Below, in pieces: positions 2,861 through 45,563 of a stretch of 64,000 nt of DNA. Position numbers and translations under genes: made by a program. Below the pieces are notes generated by a model. The model saw nothing but the letters and a program-made list of their open reading frames with translations. It searched no databases and was not told the origin of the DNA. Origin of the DNA: Thiotrichales bacterium (GTDB lineage: Bacteria > Pseudomonadota > Gammaproteobacteria > Francisellales > CACEW01); assembly GCA_947478175.1 (NCBI GenBank), contig CANJUQ010000008.1, positions 4,761 through 68,760 on the forward strand, read 5' to 3'. How positions within the stretch are numbered: the stretch's first letter is position 1; each line of letters begins with the position of its first letter.

Positions 2861-3619
2861 TTATTTCCTCAAAAATTCATTTAATTTATCAACGATACAA
2901 ACGTTACTTAGACTTTTCAGCAGAAGAATTCGAGTTACGCCTTTAGATTTCAAAAATTTAGAAGTTCGTTCACTGCTTGATGTCACTGCCACCCTTTGAG
3001 ACCAAGCTTGCTCACCCCAGAGTTCAAATAAACATTGTGCCATTTCAAAACTCGTTAGCACCACTAGATCAACCGGTTTATCTAACCCTTCTGACAAGGC
3101 GGCCCATAATAGCTGGCGGTTAGAAAGCAAACATTCACGAGCATAGGTTTCTATATTTTTAACTTTAGCGCCTAAATTTTTGAGCCCTTCTTGAAGCAAA
3201 TTATTCCCCTCACCGCCCCTAATAATAAAAAAATTACTAGGTCGCTCTTTGAGAATTAATGGCTCCATTAATTTTAATAACTCTACAGAATTGGCTGAAT
3301 CCTCTGGATATCTAACAGGCGGACTGCCAGCGTCTAATAATATTTTCGCCGTCCCCTCTCCAATGGCATACAAATGCTCCGTCGGGAAAATTAAATTATC
3401 CAAACACAGCGCTAAATAGCTTTTGACCGATTGAGGCGAGATAAAAACCAAAAAATCTTCGGGTTTAATTTTTAATAAATCTTGCTTTACCTGATTTAAA
3501 TTTTGGGGCGGCACAAATTGCATGACAGACACCGCCTGCGCTTCAAAGCCTTCAGTACTTAAAAGATTAACCAGATTTTCAGCACGTTCTTGCGGGGTGA
3601 CGACTAGGATTTTTTTCAC
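2861..3619 (-). CDS. hemD: uroporphyrinogen-III synthase
   Basis: 252 aa, with a 4-nt overlap with the hemC stop. The two-lobed HemD-like sequence and the synteny both fit. Confidence 0.8.
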   Translation of the reverse strand: MKKILVVTPQERAENLVNLLSTEGFEAQAVSVMQFVPPQNLNQVKQDLLKIKPEDFLVFISPQSVKSYLALCLDNLIFPTEHLYAIGEGTAKILLDAGSPPVRYPEDSANSVELLKLMEPLILKERPSNFFIIRGGEGNNLLQEGLKNLGAKVKNIETYARECLLSNRQLLWAALSEGLDKPVDLVVLTSFEMAQCLFELWGEQAWSQRVAVTSSSERTSKFLKSKGVTRILLLKSLSNVCIVDKLNEFLRK

Positions 3620-14573: not shown

Positions 14574-15746
14574 CTACATAGCATCGACGGCATTACAAAG
14601 GAGGCTCACAGCCTCCTTTTTTGCAAGTGCCTTCGCCTTCTGACCCATGCTGTCTAATAGTTTTCTATCGTTAGATAAATCTTGAATCACTTGGGCTAAT
14701 TTCTCAGCGGTTAAATCTTTCTGAATTAAACAAATACCTGCACCTTGTTCTGATAACCATTCGGCATTCATACGCTGATGATCATCGACGACATTAGGAT
14801 GAGGAATAAAAATTGCTGGCAATCCAACCGCTGCGACTTCAGAGACGGTCAACGCTCCAGACCTGCAAATAATCAAATCTGCCCACTGATACTCCTGAAC
14901 AATTTCAGAAAAATAGGGGACCACTTGGATTTCATGTCCTGAATTATTTTTCATAAAATTTTTATAATTTTCTTGGGCTATTTCTAAAGTCTTAGGACCC
15001 GCTTGATGATGAATATTCATGGGATTTTTTATTTTCGAAAGGGCTTCGGGAATCAAAGTATTAAAAATCAAAGAGCCTTGACTGCCACCGGTGATTAAAA
15101 TTTTTAAAGGACCCTCACGCTTCCCCCCTCTCTGCCCCTCAACGCATACGCGTTTCGGGTCTGTCTCTCCCGCGAGGGGAGAGACGAAATCCATTCCATC
15201 TACAAATTTTGAACGAACAATTTCCAAAATATCCGCTCTAATCGGATTCCCAATCACTTCACTTTTAAAATGATTAATAGGAAACGCTGAAAATATTCTT
15301 GCCGCCATCTTGGCCAAATAAAAATTCGTCATGCCCAAGATCGCATTTTGCTCATGAATAAATAAAGGAACCCCCAATGATTTCGCCGCCAATCCCGCCG
15401 GCCCGCTGGCAAAGCCTCCAAAAGAAATAACTAGATCTGCTTTTTTATTTTTTAAAATTTTTCGAGCCTGTAATACGGCTCTCATTAATTTAAACGGTAA
15501 TTGGATCCAGCCCAGTAAGCTCTTGTTTCTGACCCCAGCAATTTTTAAAAAATCACTTTCTATTCCAATTCCAGCCTCAGGCACTAATTTTTTTTCTAAC
15601 CCCACTTCACTGCCAATCCAGCTAATTAAATAACCCCGCTGAATTAATTCTTTTGCGATGGCTAACCCTGGGTAAATATGTCCGCCCGTTCCTCCGGCCG
15701 TTATTACAATATTTTTAATATTTTTTAATTTTCTAATTTTGCTCAC
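14574..15746 (-). CDS. murG: UDP-N-acetylglucosamine--lipid I N-acetylglucosamine transferase
   Basis: Has GGTGGHIYPG and GGSQG motifs. At 390 aa it is longer than usual because of an in-frame repeat insertion. Confidence 0.93.
   Translation of the reverse strand: MSKIRKLKNIKNIVITAGGTGGHIYPGLAIAKELIQRGYLISWIGSEVGLEKKLVPEAGIGIESDFLKIAGVRNKSLLGWIQLPFKLMRAVLQARKILKNKKADLVISFGGFASGPAGLAAKSLGVPLFIHEQNAILGMTNFYLAKMAARIFSAFPINHFKSEVIGNPIRADILEIVRSKFVDGMDFVSPLAGETDPKRVCVEGQRGGKREGPLKILITGGSQGSLIFNTLIPEALSKIKNPMNIHHQAGPKTLEIAQENYKNFMKNNSGHEIQVVPYFSEIVQEYQWADLIICRSGALTVSEVAAVGLPAIFIPHPNVVDDHQRMNAEWLSEQGAGICLIQKDLTAEKLAQVIQDLSNDRKLLDSMGQKAKALAKKEAVSLLCNAVDAM
14600..14622 (+). terminator. rho-independent terminator for the 14100-14564 gene, embedded in the murG 3' coding end
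   Basis: GGAGGCT-cac-AGCCTCC followed by T6. Confidence 0.55.
15131..15197 (+). repeat. 67-bp GC-rich element (family B) inside murG
   Basis: TTCCCCCCTCTCTGCCCCTC...GTCTCTCCCGCGAGGGGAGAGACGA. It has the same length and the same termini as the copy at 38851-38917. Confidence 0.75.
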
Positions 15747-38836: not shown

Positions 38837-38850
38837 TTTATTTTTCCTAT

Positions 38851-38917
38851 TTCCCCCCTCTCTGTCCCTACAGGCTAGGGCCTTTCGGGCCTGTCTCTCC
38901 CGCAGGGGGAGAGACGA
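38851..38917 (+). repeat. 67-bp GC-rich element (family B), intergenic copy
   Basis: TTCCCCCCTCTCTGTCCCTA...GTCTCTCCCGCAGGGGGAGAGACGA. The termini are identical to the murG copy and the central ~13 nt differ. Confidence 0.75.
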
Positions 38918-42205: not shown

Positions 42206-42466
42206 AGGTGTCCTTGAAAAAGTTAAGTGGTGAAAAAAAGGGGCGCATTGTTTCATTTTTTTCGCAGGGTTACCATGCCGGATTTTTTAGCTAGGGTTGA
42301 AGCTTTTCTAATTCTTTAAAATAAATTTCAAAATCTTTCTCAACCTGACTTTTGTCTTCTTCCCTCTGGACTTGGCGATCAGCCTCTTTTTGAACTGTTG
42401 CAAAATTTGCAACAGTTGCCATTTTCAAACATTGATTTGCGAGTCGATGACTTTACCTGCTGAACG

Positions 42467-42890
42467 AATGGCACTGACTTAAGGTCGGCAAGGCTTATCT
42501 TGCTTGAATTCCCCTCTCCAATATTGGAGAGGGCAAGCCACTGAAAGTGGCGCGGGAGAGGGATTTAAAAAACATCCCACTATTGCAAGTTCAGATAAAT
42601 AGCTTCAAGAACAGCTGCTTTTTCTTTAAATACTTCATGATTACGTCATGATTTCAAAATCTAATGACGTGAAATCCCAAAGACTCTAAATGCTTTGTTC
42701 GATTTGAATCTCTTTTGGCATGTGATTCTTCCAGATGTTGACTGCCATCGAGTTCGATAATCAGATATTTTTAATGTGTTATTTATTTTTAAATCCCTCT
42801 CCCGCGCCACTTTCAGTGGCTTGCCCTCTCCAATATTGGAGAGGGGAATTCAAGCAAGATAAGCCTTACCGACCTTAAGTCAGTGCCATT
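42467..42890. mobile_element. foldback / MITE-like element with 105-bp terminal inverted repeats
   Basis: 42467-42571 is the reverse complement of 42786-42890 with a single mismatch. The arms carry nested hairpins (CCCTCTCC-aatatt-GGAGAGGG and GCCAC-tgaaa-GTGGC). Confidence 0.65.
42579..42770 (-). pseudogene. DUF559 (Vsr-like endonuclease) C-terminal remnant
   Basis: The reverse frame reads KYLIIELDGSQHLEESHAKRDSNRTKHLESLGFHVIRF then TGA then NHDVIMKYLKKK. A 1-nt shift restores AAVLEAIYLNLQ. The N-terminal half is missing. Confidence 0.6.
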
Positions 42891-42989
42891 TCACCCGCTG
42901 AACTTCTTATGAATTTGCTTGAATAGGTCTTAACAGGCATTATCCGCCGCCGAAAATAAGGGCACCTAGAACGGACTCAGATTCAAAAT

Positions 42990-45563
42990 ATGAACACAGA
43001 ACACCTCGAAGTCTTAGTCATAACGACTGACCACACCCCCATGATGAAGCAATATTTATCTATCAAAGCCAAGCACCCTGATTTGCTGTTGTTTTACCGC
43101 ATGGGTGACTTCTATGAAATGTTCTTTGAAGACGCCATCGAAGGTGCCAAATTATTAGATATCACGCTCACACAAAGAGGCCAATCAGCCGGCCAGCCCA
43201 TTCCGATGGCGGGAATCCCTGCGCATTCTGTCGAAAGTTATTTGGCCAAATTAATTATCCAAGGTAAATCCGTTGCTATTTGTGAACAAATCGGCGACCC
43301 CAGCACGAGCAAAGGCCCTGTCGCTCGCGAAGTCACTCGAATTGTCACGCCTGGCACAGTCACAGAAGAACATCTACTTCAAGAAAAACAAGATAACTGG
43401 CTCGTCGCTTTATCTAGAAATCCTAAAAAACTTTCTATCGCCGCTGTTAATTTATCAGGCGGTGAATTAGTCCTATATCCCATTAATTCACTCACCGAAC
43501 AGAATGCTTTATTGGCTCAATTAAAACCTGCTGAAATTTTAATGCCCGACTCAGAAGATTTAACTCAAGAACAAGAATCAGGGGTGACTCGGCGGTCTGA
43601 TTTAGATTTTGATAGTAAAGCGGGTCAGCGGCTTTTAGAAAAACAACTCGGCGTCTCGACTTTAATTTCTTTTGGAATGGACCCTGCCAAGCTCACTCAT
43701 GTATTAGGTTTGGGGGCTTTAGGCGCTTTATTAAATTATTTAAACGAAACCCAAAAAATAGCGTTACCCCATTTAAAACGCTTTAGGCTTCAACAGTCTG
43801 ATCAAATTTTAATGCTCGACGAATCCACGCGACGCAATCTAGAAATCGACCAAAATCTCCGCGGCGGTAAAACACACACGCTTTTATCTGTTCTAGATCG
43901 CTGCCAGACCCCGATGGGTTCTAGGTTACTGCGCCGATGGCTCAATGAGCCTTCAAGAGAAATCAAAATAATTTTGGCCAGGCAACAGGCCATCACAGAA
44001 CTCAAAGAAAAATTAATCTACCCAGAACTGACGCCGCTATTACACAGCATTGGCGATGCTGAAAGAATTTTAACTCGTGTGGCTTTACTCTCGGCCCGAC
44101 CTCAAGATTTATTAAAACTAAAATCTTCTCTTTTTGTTTTACCTAATCTTTTAAAAATTTTAAAAAATTTAAACTCTCAAAAAATTCAAATTCTTTCTGC
44201 TCAGATCCAATTATTTCCAGACTTACATCAGCTCTTAGATTTATCTATAGATCCCAATGCCCCGACGATTTTGCGGGATGGCGGTGTCATTAGACCTGGC
44301 TTTGATGCTGTCTTAGACGAACTCAAAAGCTTGGGAGAAAACGCCAGTCAATATTTACTAGATCTCGAAATTCGAGAAAAAGCTCGAACTAAAATTCCGA
44401 CACTCAAAGTGGGTTATAACCGGGTTCATGGGTTTTATATCGAAATTTCTAAAGGCCAGTCAGACAAAGCACCGTTAGATTATCAAAGACGCCAGACTCT
44501 CAAGAATGCTGAGAGATATATCACTCCAGAGTTAAAAACGTTGGAAGATAAAGTCTTATCTGCCCAAGAAAGAGCGCTCGCTCGAGAGAAGCAGCTCTAT
44601 GAAGAAATTTTGATCAAAATAAATCAATCTCTTGAATCTTTACAAAAAACTTTTGAAGCCATTTGTGAATTAGATATTTTGCAAAATTGGGCTGAACGCG
44701 CTGAAAAATTAAAGCTTACTTGCCCCCAGCTCACCCCAGAATCTGTCTTGAAAATTTCTAAAGGCCGTCATCTTGTGGTCGAGTCTGTTTTAAAAGAACC
44801 CTTTATTCCCAATGACACTGCGTTAGATTCAAACACCCGAATGTTACTCATCACTGGGCCAAACATGGGCGGAAAATCAACTTATATGCGACAAGTCGCT
44901 TTGATTACTTTATTGGCTTACACCGGCTGCTTTGTCCCAGCCCAATCTGCCCTAATTGGACCGATCGATCGAATCTTTACCCGCATTGGCGCGAGTGATG
45001 ACTTGGCTTCTAATCGATCGACTTTCATGGTCGAAATGAGCGAAACAGCCCAAATATTGCACCATGCGACAGATCGCTCTTTAGTTTTATTAGACGAAAT
45101 TGGCCGAGGAACTAGTACGTTCGATGGTTTATCTCTGGCGTTTGCGACAGCTGAATATTTAAGTTCTCAGGTCAAACCTTTGACTTTATTTGCGACTCAT
45201 TATTTTGAATTAACCACGTTAGATAAAAACCCAGGCATTCAAAATATCCATGTCAGTGCGAGAGAAATCCAAGGCCAGTTAGTTTTACTGCATGAAATTA
45301 AACCTGGCCCTGCCAGTCAGAGCTATGGTATTGCAGTCGCAAAACTAGCGGGTTTACCTAACTCAGTGATTCAGACGGCTAAGAAATATTTGAAAGACTT
45401 AGAGCAAAAAAGCTTGTCGCTTCACCATCCTCAGCAAAGTTTAAATTTTGATGAAGATATTTCAAAAGATACATTGTCAAAATGGTTAGAAAATTTAGAT
45501 CTAGAGGCTTTGACGCCTAAGCAAGCCTTGGATTTGCTGTATGCGCTCAAATCTAAAAAATAA
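42990..45563 (+). CDS. mutS: DNA mismatch repair protein MutS
   Basis: Has [20 protein letters not shown], Walker [10 protein letters not shown] and DEIGRGTST motifs. Confidence 0.95.

What the first reader, a model, noticed from the sequence alone, without database searches (positions are those of the whole stretch)
42467..42890. 424-bp foldback element with 105-bp near-perfect inverted arms around a decayed DUF559 endonuclease gene
42467-42571 and 42786-42890 are reverse complements with one mismatch in 105 bp (GGCAAGG versus GGTAAGG). Each arm contains nested hairpins. The 214-bp centre encodes, on the minus strand, a DUF559/Vsr-like C-terminal half (IIELDGSQH...LGFHVIRF). That remnant has a TGA where the family has Trp (RFW), an apparent 1-nt frameshift in an A-run, and no N-terminal half. 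A similar decamer CCYGCTGAAC lies just outside both arms (42456-42465 and 42894-42903, offset by 1 and 3 nt), which could be a target-site duplication. The arms are almost identical while the cargo is decayed. That combination suggests either a recently mobilised non-autonomous element or active arm homogenisation. The element sits in the 784-bp divergent region between an amino-acid permease and mutS, so it could also affect mutS expression.
Basis: partly seen in the sequence, partly recalled or inferred. Interest (0 to 1): 0.62.

Follow-up and report, generated by a model that had tools for sequence, protein, structure and literature searches.

The report
Dead nuclease gene between BoxC repeats
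A dead copy of a small nuclease gene (DUF559) lies between two mirror-image copies of a structured DNA repeat of the long-known but unexplained BoxC type; about 170 relatives show that this nuclease family is nearly always bracketed by such repeats, so it may be the partner enzyme that nobody has found for them.

Summary
Arms 42467-42571 and 42786-42890 are reverse complements with one mismatch, and independent assemblies reproduce both arm/flank junctions. The centre is a DUF559 (Vsr-like nuclease) pseudogene. It has lost about 230 nt at its 5' end, carries TGA at the conserved Trp, and has an 11-bp tandem duplication rather than a 1-nt slip.

Each arm has two modules. The outer shell ends in a 17-mer that matches, 16 of 17, the ends of a near-full-length sister cassette flanked by a perfect 13-bp target duplication. 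The inner module is a BoxC / PIT / "TM" intrastrand-triplex motif with an extra hairpin in its second loop.

In 160 DUF559 loci from many phyla the motif lies just upstream on the sense strand (114/152) and just downstream on the antisense strand (106/145). Background is 0.18 per kb. Ten of ten isolate replicons found with E. coli YcjD also have it nearby.

The element is therefore a decayed DUF559-BoxC cassette. I found no paper linking DUF559 to BoxC. The proposed mechanism, in which the nuclease acts on its flanking repeats like a REP/RAYT or homing system, is inference. Arm homogenisation and an effect on mutS are not supported.

The parts
42455..42465 (.). Left copy of the flanking direct repeat ACCTGCTGAAC. 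It is a candidate degenerate target-site duplication, 1 nt from the arm.
   Evidence: Sequence. It matches the right copy at 10 of 11 positions, P about 0.0009 for random flank pairs. The sister cassette L003 has a perfect 13-bp duplication abutting the same termini.
42467..42510 (.). Left arm, outer shell. It begins with the terminal 17-mer AATGGCACTGACTTAAG.
   Evidence: The terminal 17-mer matches both ends of the L003/L004/L089 cassette at 16 of 17 positions, while the rest of the arm is not detectably similar. The arm-specific base C at 42489 is reproduced in Logan contigs L177 and L178.
42512..42562 (+). Left arm, BoxC/TM-type motif. It consists of pyrimidine block CCCTCTCC (42512-42519), loop AATATT, purine block GGAGAGGG (42526-42533), a loop-2 hairpin GCCACT-GAA-AGTGGC (42537-42551) and the mirror purine block GGGAGAGGG (42554-42562). 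The third block faces the gene. Relative to the minus-strand gene this is the downstream, antisense copy.
   Evidence: Motif detector, fold, and an 8 of 8 mirror match of the third block. The same layout with a hairpin in loop 2 occurs in L005/6/7/12/49/62.
42563..42571 (.). A/T run (ATTTAAAAA) at the inner end of the left arm.
   Evidence: Part of the 105-nt inverted repeat.
42580..42782 (-). DUF559 (Vsr-like PD-(D/E)xK nuclease) pseudogene, C-terminal half only. The stop TAG lies at 42582-42580, 8 nt from the left arm.
   Evidence: Pfam PF04480, E=5e-14. tblastn with P0001 aligns 42782-42639 and 42642-42583 in two frames. The closest relative P0001 is 69% identical.
42654..42656 (-). In-frame TGA replacing the conserved Trp of the RFWN motif.
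   Evidence: Translation. P0001, P0002 and P0003 all have RFWN here.
42632..42653 (-). 11-bp tandem duplication (AATCATGACGT / AATCATGAAGT) that shifts the reading frame.
   Evidence: Sequence. P0001 residues 68-72 align twice. After removal of one copy the C-terminus matches P0001.
42765..42785 (-). Deletion junction. An A/T-rich leader remnant joins directly to about codon 50-55 of the gene. About 215-240 nt, covering the leader and the N-terminal half, are missing relative to L003.
   Evidence: Comparison with the L003 cassette, which is 693 nt with a 443-nt centre against 214 nt here. No N-terminal homology was found anywhere in the window.
42786..42890 (.). Right arm, the reverse complement of the left arm. 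On the minus strand, 42845-42795 reads as the sense-strand BoxC motif immediately upstream of the gene. The outer shell is 42847-42890.
   Evidence: Logan contigs L001 and L002 match exactly from 42838 onward, including the arm-specific base at 42868.
42893..42903 (.). Right copy of the flanking direct repeat, ACCCGCTGAAC, 2 nt from the arm.

Best explanation
The 424-bp foldback is a decayed copy of a compact cassette. Intact cassettes are about 690 bp. They hold a roughly 110-aa DUF559 (Vsr-like PD-(D/E)xK) nuclease gene with long inverted arms tight against both ends.

Each arm has two modules. The outer shell carries a conserved terminal 17-mer. The inner module is a BoxC / PIT / 'TM' motif: a pyrimidine block, its complementary purine block, and a mirror purine block, able to form a hairpin, an intrastrand triplex or a G-quadruplex. 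Here it also has a hairpin in loop 2. The third blocks point at the gene.

Shown:
- The architecture.
- The pseudogene lesions.
- The sister cassette at another genomic site with a perfect 13-bp target duplication.
- The generality of the DUF559-BoxC bracket across phyla.
- BoxC copies of the clade's own subtype dispersed as solo elements, including in-frame insertions in genes.

Inferred:
- The cassette entered the permease-mutS spacer as a unit. It then lost its leader and N-terminal half by one internal deletion, and later gained the TGA and the 11-bp duplication. It is now inert.
- Mechanistically, the DUF559 nuclease recognises and nicks or cuts the structured BoxC DNA that flanks its own gene and that is scattered in the genome. 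Recombinational repair then copies the repeats, or the gene with its inner arms, into new or pre-existing palindromic sites. This resembles a REP/RAYT partnership or a free-standing homing nuclease living in the centre of its palindromic target.
- On this view the window element is an intermediate in the decay series: full cassette, then truncated cassette, then BoxC doublet.
For: Identity:
- Pfam DUF559 hit.
- The closest relative P0001 (69% identity) lies in L003 between inverted arms of about 125 nt (2709-2833 and 3277-3401). Those arms start with AATGGCACTTACTTAAG and abut perfect 13-bp direct repeats GAATCTTGTATTC.
- A third relative, L090, has arms of at least 89 nt at 99%.

Generality:
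- 50 of 80 genome loci have a significant inverted repeat bracketing the gene.
- In 160 loci, a sense-strand motif lies within 450 nt upstream in 114 of 152, and an antisense motif within 400 nt downstream in 106 of 145. Both are present in 83 of 137. Background more than 500 nt away is 0.18 per kb.
- Positions are tight. The upstream motif ends a median 108 nt before the match start, which I estimate puts it just 5' of the start codon. The downstream motif starts a median 22 nt after the match end.
- All 10 isolate replicons found with E. coli YcjD as seed have the motif within about 250 nt, and four have bracketing inverted repeats of 23-110 nt.

Motif class:
- The third block covaries as the mirror of the second (mean 0.92; 95 of 117 at 0.85 or higher).
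- The E. coli copy next to ycjD is TMECO no. 9 of Holder et al. 2015, there equated with BoxC.

Dispersal:
- In E. coli, no. 9 has the same sequence as the dispersed copies nos. 16, 19 and 22. Four of the five E. coli doublets have the cassette's convergent geometry.
- The subtype forming the arms of L003, L090 and L091 occurs as solo copies in the window (15125-15190 and 38850-38915) and in relatives L085 and L086.
- A filled/empty pair exists in mutS, and there is an in-frame copy in murG.

Copying between sites: L039 and L050, from one genome, share a 583-bp core at 97% identity inside two different locus-specific palindromes of about 200 nt.

Insertion here: relatives with the same permease, mutS and MFS neighbours carry toxin-antitoxin pairs in the spacer instead.
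Against: - No biochemical or genetic evidence that any DUF559 protein acts on BoxC DNA.
- A PD-(D/E)xK nuclease cannot rejoin strands by itself.
- Only one copy of this exact element occurs in 64 kb, and no exact empty site is available. The closest MutS is 75% identical.
- The window's flanking repeat is imperfect (10/11 with a register shift).
- By blastn, 2048 of 5426 E. coli genomes have BoxC copies but no ycjD. Most BoxC copies are not next to a DUF559 gene.
- Orthologous DUF559 loci in Rhodanobacter, an alphaproteobacterial group and Cellvibrio look vertically inherited, with no concerted evolution of the arms. Movement is therefore rare.
- The 160 loci are the best matches to one seed protein, so the association is shown for this part of DUF559, not the whole Pfam family.
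- The window arms carry a different BoxC variant from the window's solo copies.
Confidence: 0.6

Rival explanations
1. It is a conventional non-autonomous transposon (MITE-like) mobilised in trans by an unidentified DDE-type transposase that recognises the terminal 17-mers. DUF559 and the BoxC motifs are passengers.
For: The termini are conserved between two cassettes whose arm interiors have diverged. L003 has a perfect 13-bp target duplication, and the window has a near-duplication. In Legionella pneumophila a repeated segment pairs a transposase with a DUF559 gene (PMC12308824).
Against: I saw no transposase gene in or beside the cassettes I inspected; a systematic transposase scan of the loci was not run. 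The one IS4-like gene seen, in Sinorhizobium L184, lies outside the bracket. The outer shell occurs only in this lineage. The DUF559-BoxC bracket, by contrast, is found across phyla with unrelated arm sequences. Arms of 105-200 nt packed with structure are unlike typical 10-40-bp IS terminal repeats (from my own knowledge, not tested). The terminal 17-mer gave only 8 single hits in viral contigs, with no extension of similarity.
Confidence: 0.2
2. The arms are not transposition ends. They are cis-acting structures belonging to the gene. One option is a 5'/3' fold-back that silences or insulates a potentially toxic nuclease. Another is the recombination arms of an invertible switch. On this view the window copy is simply a dead gene with its regulatory flanks.
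For: The motifs lie tight against the start and stop codons at fixed distances. Orthologous loci are stably inherited. 'DUF559 domain-containing protein' is enriched (odds ratio 14.3) among predicted programmed-inversion targets (PMC9881135).
Against: The same motif class is dispersed far from any DUF559 gene: 23 copies in E. coli K-12 and solo copies in this window, some inside coding regions. PIT/BoxC elements showed no promoter or terminator activity in earlier tests, as cited in PMC4666352. Mirror covariation of the third block points to a DNA-level purine triplex; the introduction of that paper says such triplexes do not form in RNA. No recombinase gene adjoins the window element, which lies between a permease gene and mutS. 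This view explains neither the 13-bp duplication in L003 nor the shared core in two different palindromes.
Confidence: 0.15
3. It is a one-off local inverted duplication, or a misassembly at a palindrome, with no biological family behind it.
For: Short-read contigs break inside both arms. The orientation of the centre is not independently verified.
Against: Independent assemblies of separate sequencing runs reproduce each flank/arm junction, two per junction, and reproduce the single arm-specific base on each side. Relatives from other samples have the same architecture with the same termini.
Confidence: 0.03

Closest known systems
BoxC / PIT (potential intrastrand triplex) / TM_ECO repeats, also described as a G-quadruplex-hairpin-duplex switch (Holder et al. 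2015, PMC4666352; Kaplan et al. 2016, PMC5100583)
   Same: The inner module of each arm has the defining three blocks: a pyrimidine block, its complement, and a mirror purine block. Blocks are G/C-rich and 8-9 nt long with a 6-nt first loop. Such motifs also occur as convergent inverted pairs. The E. coli copy beside ycjD is listed as TMECO no. 9.
   Different: The second loop is 20 nt and holds its own hairpin, where the TMECO consensus has 3 nt. The motif is embedded in a 105-nt arm with an extra outer shell. The published work reports no associated gene or mobility function and mentions neither ycjD nor any endonuclease. Here the motifs bracket a nuclease gene.
REP / RAYT systems (REP-associated tyrosine transposases flanked by inverted REPs; REPIN doublets). 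Comparison drawn from my own knowledge.
   Same: A single small nuclease-type gene is bracketed by inverted copies of a short structured repeat. The same repeat subtype is also dispersed in the genome as singlets and inverted doublets. The gene is often single-copy and vertically inherited within a genus.
   Different: RAYTs are HUH/Y1 enzymes that cut and rejoin single-stranded DNA. DUF559 has a Vsr-like PD-(D/E)xK fold with no known joining activity. The repeat is a three-block triplex/G4 motif rather than a simple REP hairpin. No functional link has been tested.
MITEs and foldback-type non-autonomous transposons
   Same: Long terminal inverted repeats, conserved termini, a target-site duplication (perfect in L003) and an internally deleted derivative of a longer element.
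   Different: The coding parent carries a nuclease of the restriction-endonuclease fold, not a transposase. No multi-copy family of this exact element was seen: one copy in 64 kb.
Free-standing homing endonuclease genes of the PD-(D/E)xK / Vsr-like kind. A group I intron homing endonuclease is listed in the VSR/DUF559/DUF2726 clade in PMC3424549.
   Same: A small nuclease gene sits in the middle of a symmetric sequence that could be its own interrupted target. An identical gene plus inner arms is found inside two different outer palindromes in one genome.
   Different: No intron or intein context. No cleavage specificity is known. No allelic filled/empty pair was found for the gene itself.
Rickettsia palindromic elements (RPEs). 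This comparison applies to the solo BoxC-like copies only and is drawn from my own knowledge.
   Same: Short structured repeats are inserted in frame into essential genes, adding a peptide in a linker. Examples are murG in the window and mutS in relative L085, both encoding ...DFVSPLAGETDPK....
   Different: Different sequence, different clade, and a three-block triplex architecture.

Membership tests
DUF559 (Pfam PF04480), Vsr-like PD-(D/E)xK nuclease | Significant match to the family HMM | tested here: met
   E=5e-14, 52.5 bits against a gathering cutoff of 20.6. Only profile positions 55-95 of 109 are covered.
DUF559 (Pfam PF04480), Vsr-like PD-(D/E)xK nuclease | Complete, uninterrupted coding sequence including the N-terminal half | tested here: not met
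   The N-terminal half is absent, there is an in-frame TGA, and an 11-bp duplication shifts the frame. It is a pseudogene of the family.
BoxC / PIT / TM intrastrand-triplex motif | A pyrimidine block followed after a 3-6-nt loop by its complementary purine block | tested here: met
   CCCTCTCC, AATATT, GGAGAGGG at 42512-42533, and the mirror copy on the minus strand.
BoxC / PIT / TM intrastrand-triplex motif | A third purine block that is the mirror repeat of the second | tested here: met
   GGGAGAGG(G) at 42554-42562 matches the mirror of GGAGAGGG at 8 of 8 positions. Across relatives the mean mirror match is 0.92.
BoxC / PIT / TM intrastrand-triplex motif | Short second loop (3 nt in the TMECO consensus; 1-6 nt in the ITxF search rules) | tested here: not met
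   The second loop is 20 nt and contains the hairpin GCCACT-GAA-AGTGGC. The same variant occurs beside DUF559 genes in L005/6/7/12/49/62. A covariance model built from short-loop copies does not detect the arms.
BoxC / PIT / TM intrastrand-triplex motif | Actual formation of a triplex or G-quadruplex | not testable with these tools
   Only hairpin folding could be computed. In vitro triplex and G4 formation is published for the E. coli motif (PMC4666352; PMC5100583).
MITE / non-autonomous TIR transposon | Terminal inverted repeats | tested here: met
   105-nt arms, 104 of 105 complementary.
MITE / non-autonomous TIR transposon | Target-site duplication abutting the ends | tested here: inconclusive
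   In the window the 11-mers match at 10 of 11 positions and are offset by 1 and 2 nt (P about 0.0009). The sister cassette L003 has a perfect 13-bp duplication.
MITE / non-autonomous TIR transposon | Multiple copies in the genome and a cognate autonomous element encoding a transposase | tested here: inconclusive
   There is one copy in 64 kb and the rest of the genome is not available. I saw no transposase gene in or beside the related cassettes I inspected; no systematic scan was run. The terminal 17-mer gave only chance hits in viral contigs.
REP / RAYT-type partnership | Gene bracketed by inverted copies of the repeat that is also dispersed in the same genome | tested here: inconclusive
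   The bracket is met. Dispersal of the same subtype is shown for E. coli (no. 9 equals nos. 16, 19 and 22) and at clade level for the L003 subtype. The window's own arm variant has no solo copy in 64 kb.
REP / RAYT-type partnership | The enzyme is an HUH/Y1 transposase-like protein | tested here: not met
   The gene is DUF559, a PD-(D/E)xK nuclease. This is an analogy, not membership.
Homing endonuclease gene | Filled and empty alleles of the same site, with the nuclease cleaving the empty allele | not testable with these tools
   No empty allele was found because the closest relative is too distant. Indirect evidence only: the same core lies in two different palindromes.
Programmed invertible segment | Inverted repeats plus an adjacent site-specific recombinase, with both orientations present in the population | tested here: not met
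   The element lies directly between a permease gene and mutS with no recombinase gene between them. Orientation heterogeneity could not be tested because no reads are available.

The most novel reading that the evidence does not exclude
DUF559 (YcjD-type) nucleases are the missing partner enzymes of BoxC / PIT / triplex-motif repeats. [quoted passage not shown] The gene sits in the centre of an inverted BoxC pair. The nuclease acts on the structured repeat DNA, and repair then spreads or maintains singlets, doublets and gene-bearing cassettes. This would be a second system analogous to REP/RAYT, built on a different nuclease fold. The window element would be a caught intermediate between a full cassette and a gene-less doublet.
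Probability: 0.35. Interest if true: 0.85.

Novelty: new variant of a known kind. Interest (0 to 1): 0.66.

Why it matters
BoxC / PIT / TM repeats are abundant from enterobacteria to cyanobacteria. They form triplex and G-quadruplex structures in vitro and are linked to local genome instability. Published work found no associated mobility gene and no function (PMC4666352). DUF559 is a very widespread nuclease family, including E. coli YcjD, also with no known role.

A tight, oriented, cross-phylum association between the two makes both open questions directly testable. Does YcjD bind or cut BoxC DNA? Do repeat subtypes track their local DUF559 gene?

It also explains why annotation pipelines and inversion screens keep flagging DUF559 genes, and why short-read assemblies break at these loci. 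The window copy itself is an inert relic with no demonstrated effect on its neighbours.

Tried and rejected
- Rfam. Nothing reached gathering score in the element or in 20 related loci apart from tRNAs. A weak RT-19 resemblance (15.7 bits against 78.3) is at chance level.
- Empty site. The closest MutS relatives are 75%, 68% and 67% identical. Their spacers hold toxin-antitoxin pairs or an unrelated gene and share no sequence with the element, so no exact empty site exists in the data.
- Independent contigs through the element. Exact-protein look-ups of three small ORFs in or beside the element found nothing. Contigs carrying the flanking genes stop inside the arms.
- Arm homogenisation. I compared within-locus with between-species arm identity in five sets of related loci and found no concerted evolution.
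- Covariance model. A model built from 48 short-loop motifs found only the two solo copies in the window, not the arms. The MAFFT alignment was too shifted for column-wise pair counting, so I used per-instance complement and mirror scoring instead.
- Terminal 17-mer scan of viral contigs: 8 single hits with no extension of similarity, judged chance matches.
- E. coli population. ycjD is present in 3378 of 5426 genomes and alternates with eefRABCD at one locus (PMC12817139). This is informative about variability, but it is not a clean filled/empty pair for a BoxC doublet.
- Source genome. Whether L003 comes from the same genome as the window could not be settled. Tetranucleotide correlation is 0.95 and GC is 40.4% against 41.1%, and cluster look-ups gave no accessions.
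- Literature. Searches for DUF559, ycjD, BoxC, intrastrand triplex and the motif sequence found no paper linking the nuclease to the repeat. The library excludes most subscription journals, so prior description cannot be ruled out.
Full report

Yes. The repeat finder reports arms 42467-42571 and 42786-42890 as 105 nt, 99% complementary and 214 nt apart. The single mismatch is at 42489. The central 22-nt palindrome of each arm occurs nowhere else in the 64-kb window, against 0 expected by chance. Each arm folds into several hairpins well beyond shuffled controls (z about -3.6).

The minus strand of the centre encodes ...YLIIELDGSQHLEESHAKRDSNRTKHLESLGFHVIRF*... This hits Pfam DUF559 at E=5e-14 over profile positions 55-95 of 109. 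The TGA at the family's Trp is real.

The minus strand carries an 11-bp tandem duplication, AATCATGACGT followed by AATCATGAAGT (42653-42632). Removing one copy gives RFWNHEVFKEKAAVLEAIYLNLQ*, which matches the closest relative at 18 of its last 20 residues.

The flanking repeats are 11-mers, ACCYGCTGAAC, at 42455-42465 and 42893-42903. A match this good arose in 0.09% of random flank pairs.

Independent Logan assemblies from other runs match the window exactly up to 42505 and from 42838 onward, including the arm-specific bases. Both junctions are therefore real. All of these contigs end inside the arms, as expected for an inverted repeat in a short-k-mer assembly graph. The orientation of the centre therefore rests on the window's assembly alone.

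**2. What is it? Sister elements.**

The closest protein, P0001, is 69% identical. It lies in a MAG contig (locus L003) as a nearly full-length DUF559 gene with one in-frame TAG. It sits between inverted arms of about 125 nt (2709-2833 and 3277-3401). The arms begin with AATGGCACTTACTTAAG, and perfect 13-bp direct repeats GAATCTTGTATTC abut them. The inferred target is the hairpin GGGCGAAT-CTTGT-ATTCGCCC, just downstream of the preceding gene's stop.

The window arms begin with AATGGCACTGACTTAAG, a 16 of 17 match. The rest of the arms is not detectably similar. Two cassettes at different genomic sites thus share termini and a closely related gene, and one has a clean target duplication. This is a family of elements that has moved.

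The L003 element is 693 nt. The window element is 424 nt because its arms are about 20 nt shorter each and about 230 nt of leader plus N-terminal coding sequence are missing. L090, whose protein is 61% identical to P0001, has arms of at least 89 nt at 99%.

**3. What are the arms? The BoxC motif.**

Scans of one genome per species and of metagenomes with P0001 gave 160 DUF559 loci. They come from Dehalococcoidia, Gastranaerophilales, Alpha- and Gammaproteobacteria, Patescibacteria, Planctomycetes, Ignavibacteria and others. In the 80 genome loci, 50 have a significant inverted repeat bracketing the gene.

Reading the flanks showed a common motif:
- a C-rich block,
- a short loop,
- the complementary G-rich block,
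- a short second loop or an inserted hairpin,
- and a second G-rich block.

A simple detector finds it on the sense strand within 450 nt upstream in 114 of 152 loci. It finds it on the antisense strand within 400 nt downstream in 106 of 145, and on both sides in 83 of 137. Elsewhere in the same loci the density is 0.18 per kb. The positions are tight. The upstream copy ends a median 108 nt before the match start, which I estimate puts it just 5' of the start codon. The downstream copy starts a median 22 nt after the match end.

The third block covaries with the second as its mirror image, with A to T allowed. Examples are GGGGGAAGG with GGATGGGGG, and GGGAGAGAG with GAGTGAGGG. The mean match is 0.92, and 95 of 117 instances score 0.85 or higher.

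The window arms fit this layout: CCCTCTCC, aatatt, GGAGAGGG, [caa GCCACT gaa AGTGGC gc], GGGAGAGG(G). They belong to the minority variant with a hairpin in the second loop. The third blocks face the gene on both sides.

A full-text search for the motif sequence identified it. It is the BoxC repeat of E. coli, re-described as PIT elements and as the intrastrand triplex motif TM_ECO (Holder et al. 2015, PMC4666352). It was also described as a G-quadruplex-hairpin-duplex switch (Kaplan et al. 2016, PMC5100583).

The only DUF559 gene I examined in E. coli K-12, ycjD, has a BoxC-like hairpin overlapping its stop codon. About 165 nt downstream lies TMECO no. 9 of Holder's Table 1.

Neither paper mentions ycjD or any endonuclease. 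Holder et al. state that they never found mobility functions near the motif. A screen for programmed inversions found DUF559 proteins enriched among targets (odds ratio 14.3) without explanation (PMC9881135). My searches found no paper making the link.

As an independent check I used E. coli YcjD as a tblastn seed against plasmid and secondary-replicon records of cultured isolates. All 10 loci inspected have the motif within about 250 nt. They were Azospirillum, Sphingomonas, Picosynechococcus, Neisseria, Deinococcus, Sinorhizobium, Klebsiella, Pseudanabaena, Methylobacterium and Photobacterium. Sinorhizobium (110 nt, 97%), Pseudanabaena (91 nt, 88%), Deinococcus (53 nt, 96%) and Sphingomonas (23 nt, 100%) have bracketing inverted repeats.

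**4. Are the repeats dispersed and mobile?**

In E. coli a BoxC query finds a median of 16 places per genome in all 5426 complete genomes. K-12 has 23 copies. No. 9, beside ycjD, is identical to nos. 16, 19 and 22. Four of the five inverted doublets are convergent with 16-27-nt spacers, which is the same geometry as the arms around DUF559.

In the window's clade, the subtype GTCTCTCCCC..GGGAGAGAC..[hairpin]..CAGAGAGGGG forms both arms of cassettes L003, L090 and L091. The same subtype occurs as solo copies in the window (15125-15190 and 38850-38915) and in relatives L085 and L086.

The copy at 15125-15190 lies in frame inside murG. It adds about 24 residues in the interdomain linker relative to E. 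coli MurG. L085 has the same subtype in frame near the C-terminus of MutS, encoding LDFVSPLAGETDPK.... The window's MutS lacks it, which makes a filled/empty pair.

L039 and L050 come from one genome. They share a 583-bp core (the gene plus the inner 134 nt of each arm) at 97% identity. That core sits inside two different locus-specific palindromes of about 200 nt, each filling the space between convergent genes.

**5. Context in the window.**

The organism is an uncultured gammaproteobacterium; its closest MutS match is 75% identical. A relative with the same permease, mutS and MFS neighbours has a YoeB/Phd pair in the spacer. Another has a ParE/Phd pair upstream of mutS. Neither spacer resembles the element. 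The spacer is therefore a landing site for small selfish modules, and the DUF559 element is not ancestral there. No exact empty site is available.

The only promoter-like hexamers lie between the element and mutS (42930-42957), and no terminator-like site was found. I see no evidence that the element affects mutS.

**6. How it most likely works.**

Shown: the architecture, the lesions, the family, the association and the dispersal.

Inferred:
- A full cassette inserted here, possibly with a target duplication of about 13 bp. It then lost its leader and N-terminal half in one deletion, gained the TGA and the 11-bp duplication, and is now inert.
- For the family, I propose that the DUF559 nuclease recognises the structured BoxC DNA flanking its gene and scattered in the genome. 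Nicking or cutting followed by recombinational repair then spreads or maintains the repeats and, occasionally, the gene with its inner arms.
- This works like a REP/RAYT pair, or like a homing nuclease living in the centre of a palindromic target. It is not a member of either class, because the enzyme has a Vsr-like PD-(D/E)xK fold.
- The decay series would run from full cassette (about 690 bp) to truncated cassette (424 bp, this window) to convergent BoxC doublet (about 90 bp, E. coli).

Against frequent mobility:
- Orthologous DUF559 loci within genera look vertically inherited, and their two arms do not evolve in concert.
- 2048 E. coli genomes keep BoxC without ycjD.

One arm difference against three cargo lesions is too few events to show a rate difference, and the lesions may predate the last move.

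**7. Rivals.**

- A conventional MITE with DUF559 as passenger fits the termini and the target duplication. It lacks any transposase, and it does not explain the cross-phylum bracket with unrelated arm sequences.
- A purely cis-regulatory or invertible-switch role fits the fixed distances to start and stop. It does not explain the dispersed and intragenic copies or the target duplication.
- Misassembly is excluded at the junctions.

**8. Verdict.**

The element itself is an inert relic and a new member of an undescribed cassette family. The wider pattern it exposes is a strong, oriented association between a nuclease family of unknown function and an orphan repeat family some 30 years old. To my knowledge, and within the literature I could search, that association is new and directly testable.

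Noticed in passing
window 15125-15190 (inside ORF 14574-15746, minus strand): A BoxC-like repeat of the clade's subtype lies in frame inside murG. It adds about 24 residues (…MDFVSPLAGETDPKRVCVEGQRGGKREG…) in the interdomain linker relative to E. coli MurG (PDB 1f0k). This resembles the behaviour of Rickettsia palindromic elements.
   Followed up: partly
L085 6367-6445 (mutS of a relative), compared with window mutS 42990-45563: The same repeat subtype lies in frame near the C-terminus of MutS in a relative, as a 22-residue insertion LDFVSPLAGETDPKMKLRVREGDQ. It is absent from the window's MutS. This is a filled/empty pair showing that the repeat moves, and the peptide frame is the same as in murG.
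   Followed up: partly
window 38850-38915: A second solo BoxC-like copy of the L003 subtype lies between a FUSC-like ORF and the stop codon of the malic enzyme gene. Relatives L086 and L087 have one at position 367.
   Followed up: partly
window 42291-42428 and 42393-42417: A small 45-aa ORF with no Pfam hit contains a perfect 12-bp inverted repeat, AACTGTTGCAAA-T-TTTGCAACAGTT, which looks like an operator. It lies in the same spacer where relatives carry Phd/YoeB or Phd/ParE pairs. It may be a remnant of a toxin-antitoxin module.
   Followed up: no
L088 (E. coli K-12 NC_000913.3, 1351200-1351830): Downstream of ycjD lies a duplicated fragment of the gene's own 3' end (…ETVLENIRQGLNR…), between a BoxC-like hairpin that overlaps the stop codon and TMECO no. 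9. A perfect 17-bp inverted repeat overlaps the ycjD start. ycjD is present in only 3378 of 5426 complete E. coli genomes, and it alternates with the eefRABCD operon at the sapF-fabI locus.
   Followed up: partly
L039 1735-2439 and L050 1719-2451 (one contig, CAWFAS010000004.1): Two DUF559 cassettes in one genome share a 97%-identical 583-bp core. Their inverted arms, however, continue outward for another 60-75 nt with sequence unique to each locus. Either the core was copied into pre-existing palindromes, or the palindromes grow outward. This is unexplained.
   Followed up: partly
L091 1798-1885: An 11-bp tandem repeat (TTCTACTGTGC, about 6-7 copies) lies just outside the downstream arm of a DUF559 cassette.
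   Followed up: no
L188 1073-1616 (Photobacterium sp. GJ3 pGJ3-1): An array of at least four roughly 150-bp units, each holding paired BoxC-like motifs, lies immediately downstream of a DUF559 gene.
   Followed up: no
L004 and L045 record titles: Lake MAGs carrying these cassettes are deposited under the names 'Francisella tularensis subsp. holarctica' and 'Rickettsia typhi'. Their composition and gene content suggest uncultured relatives, so these are probably taxonomic mislabels.
   Followed up: no
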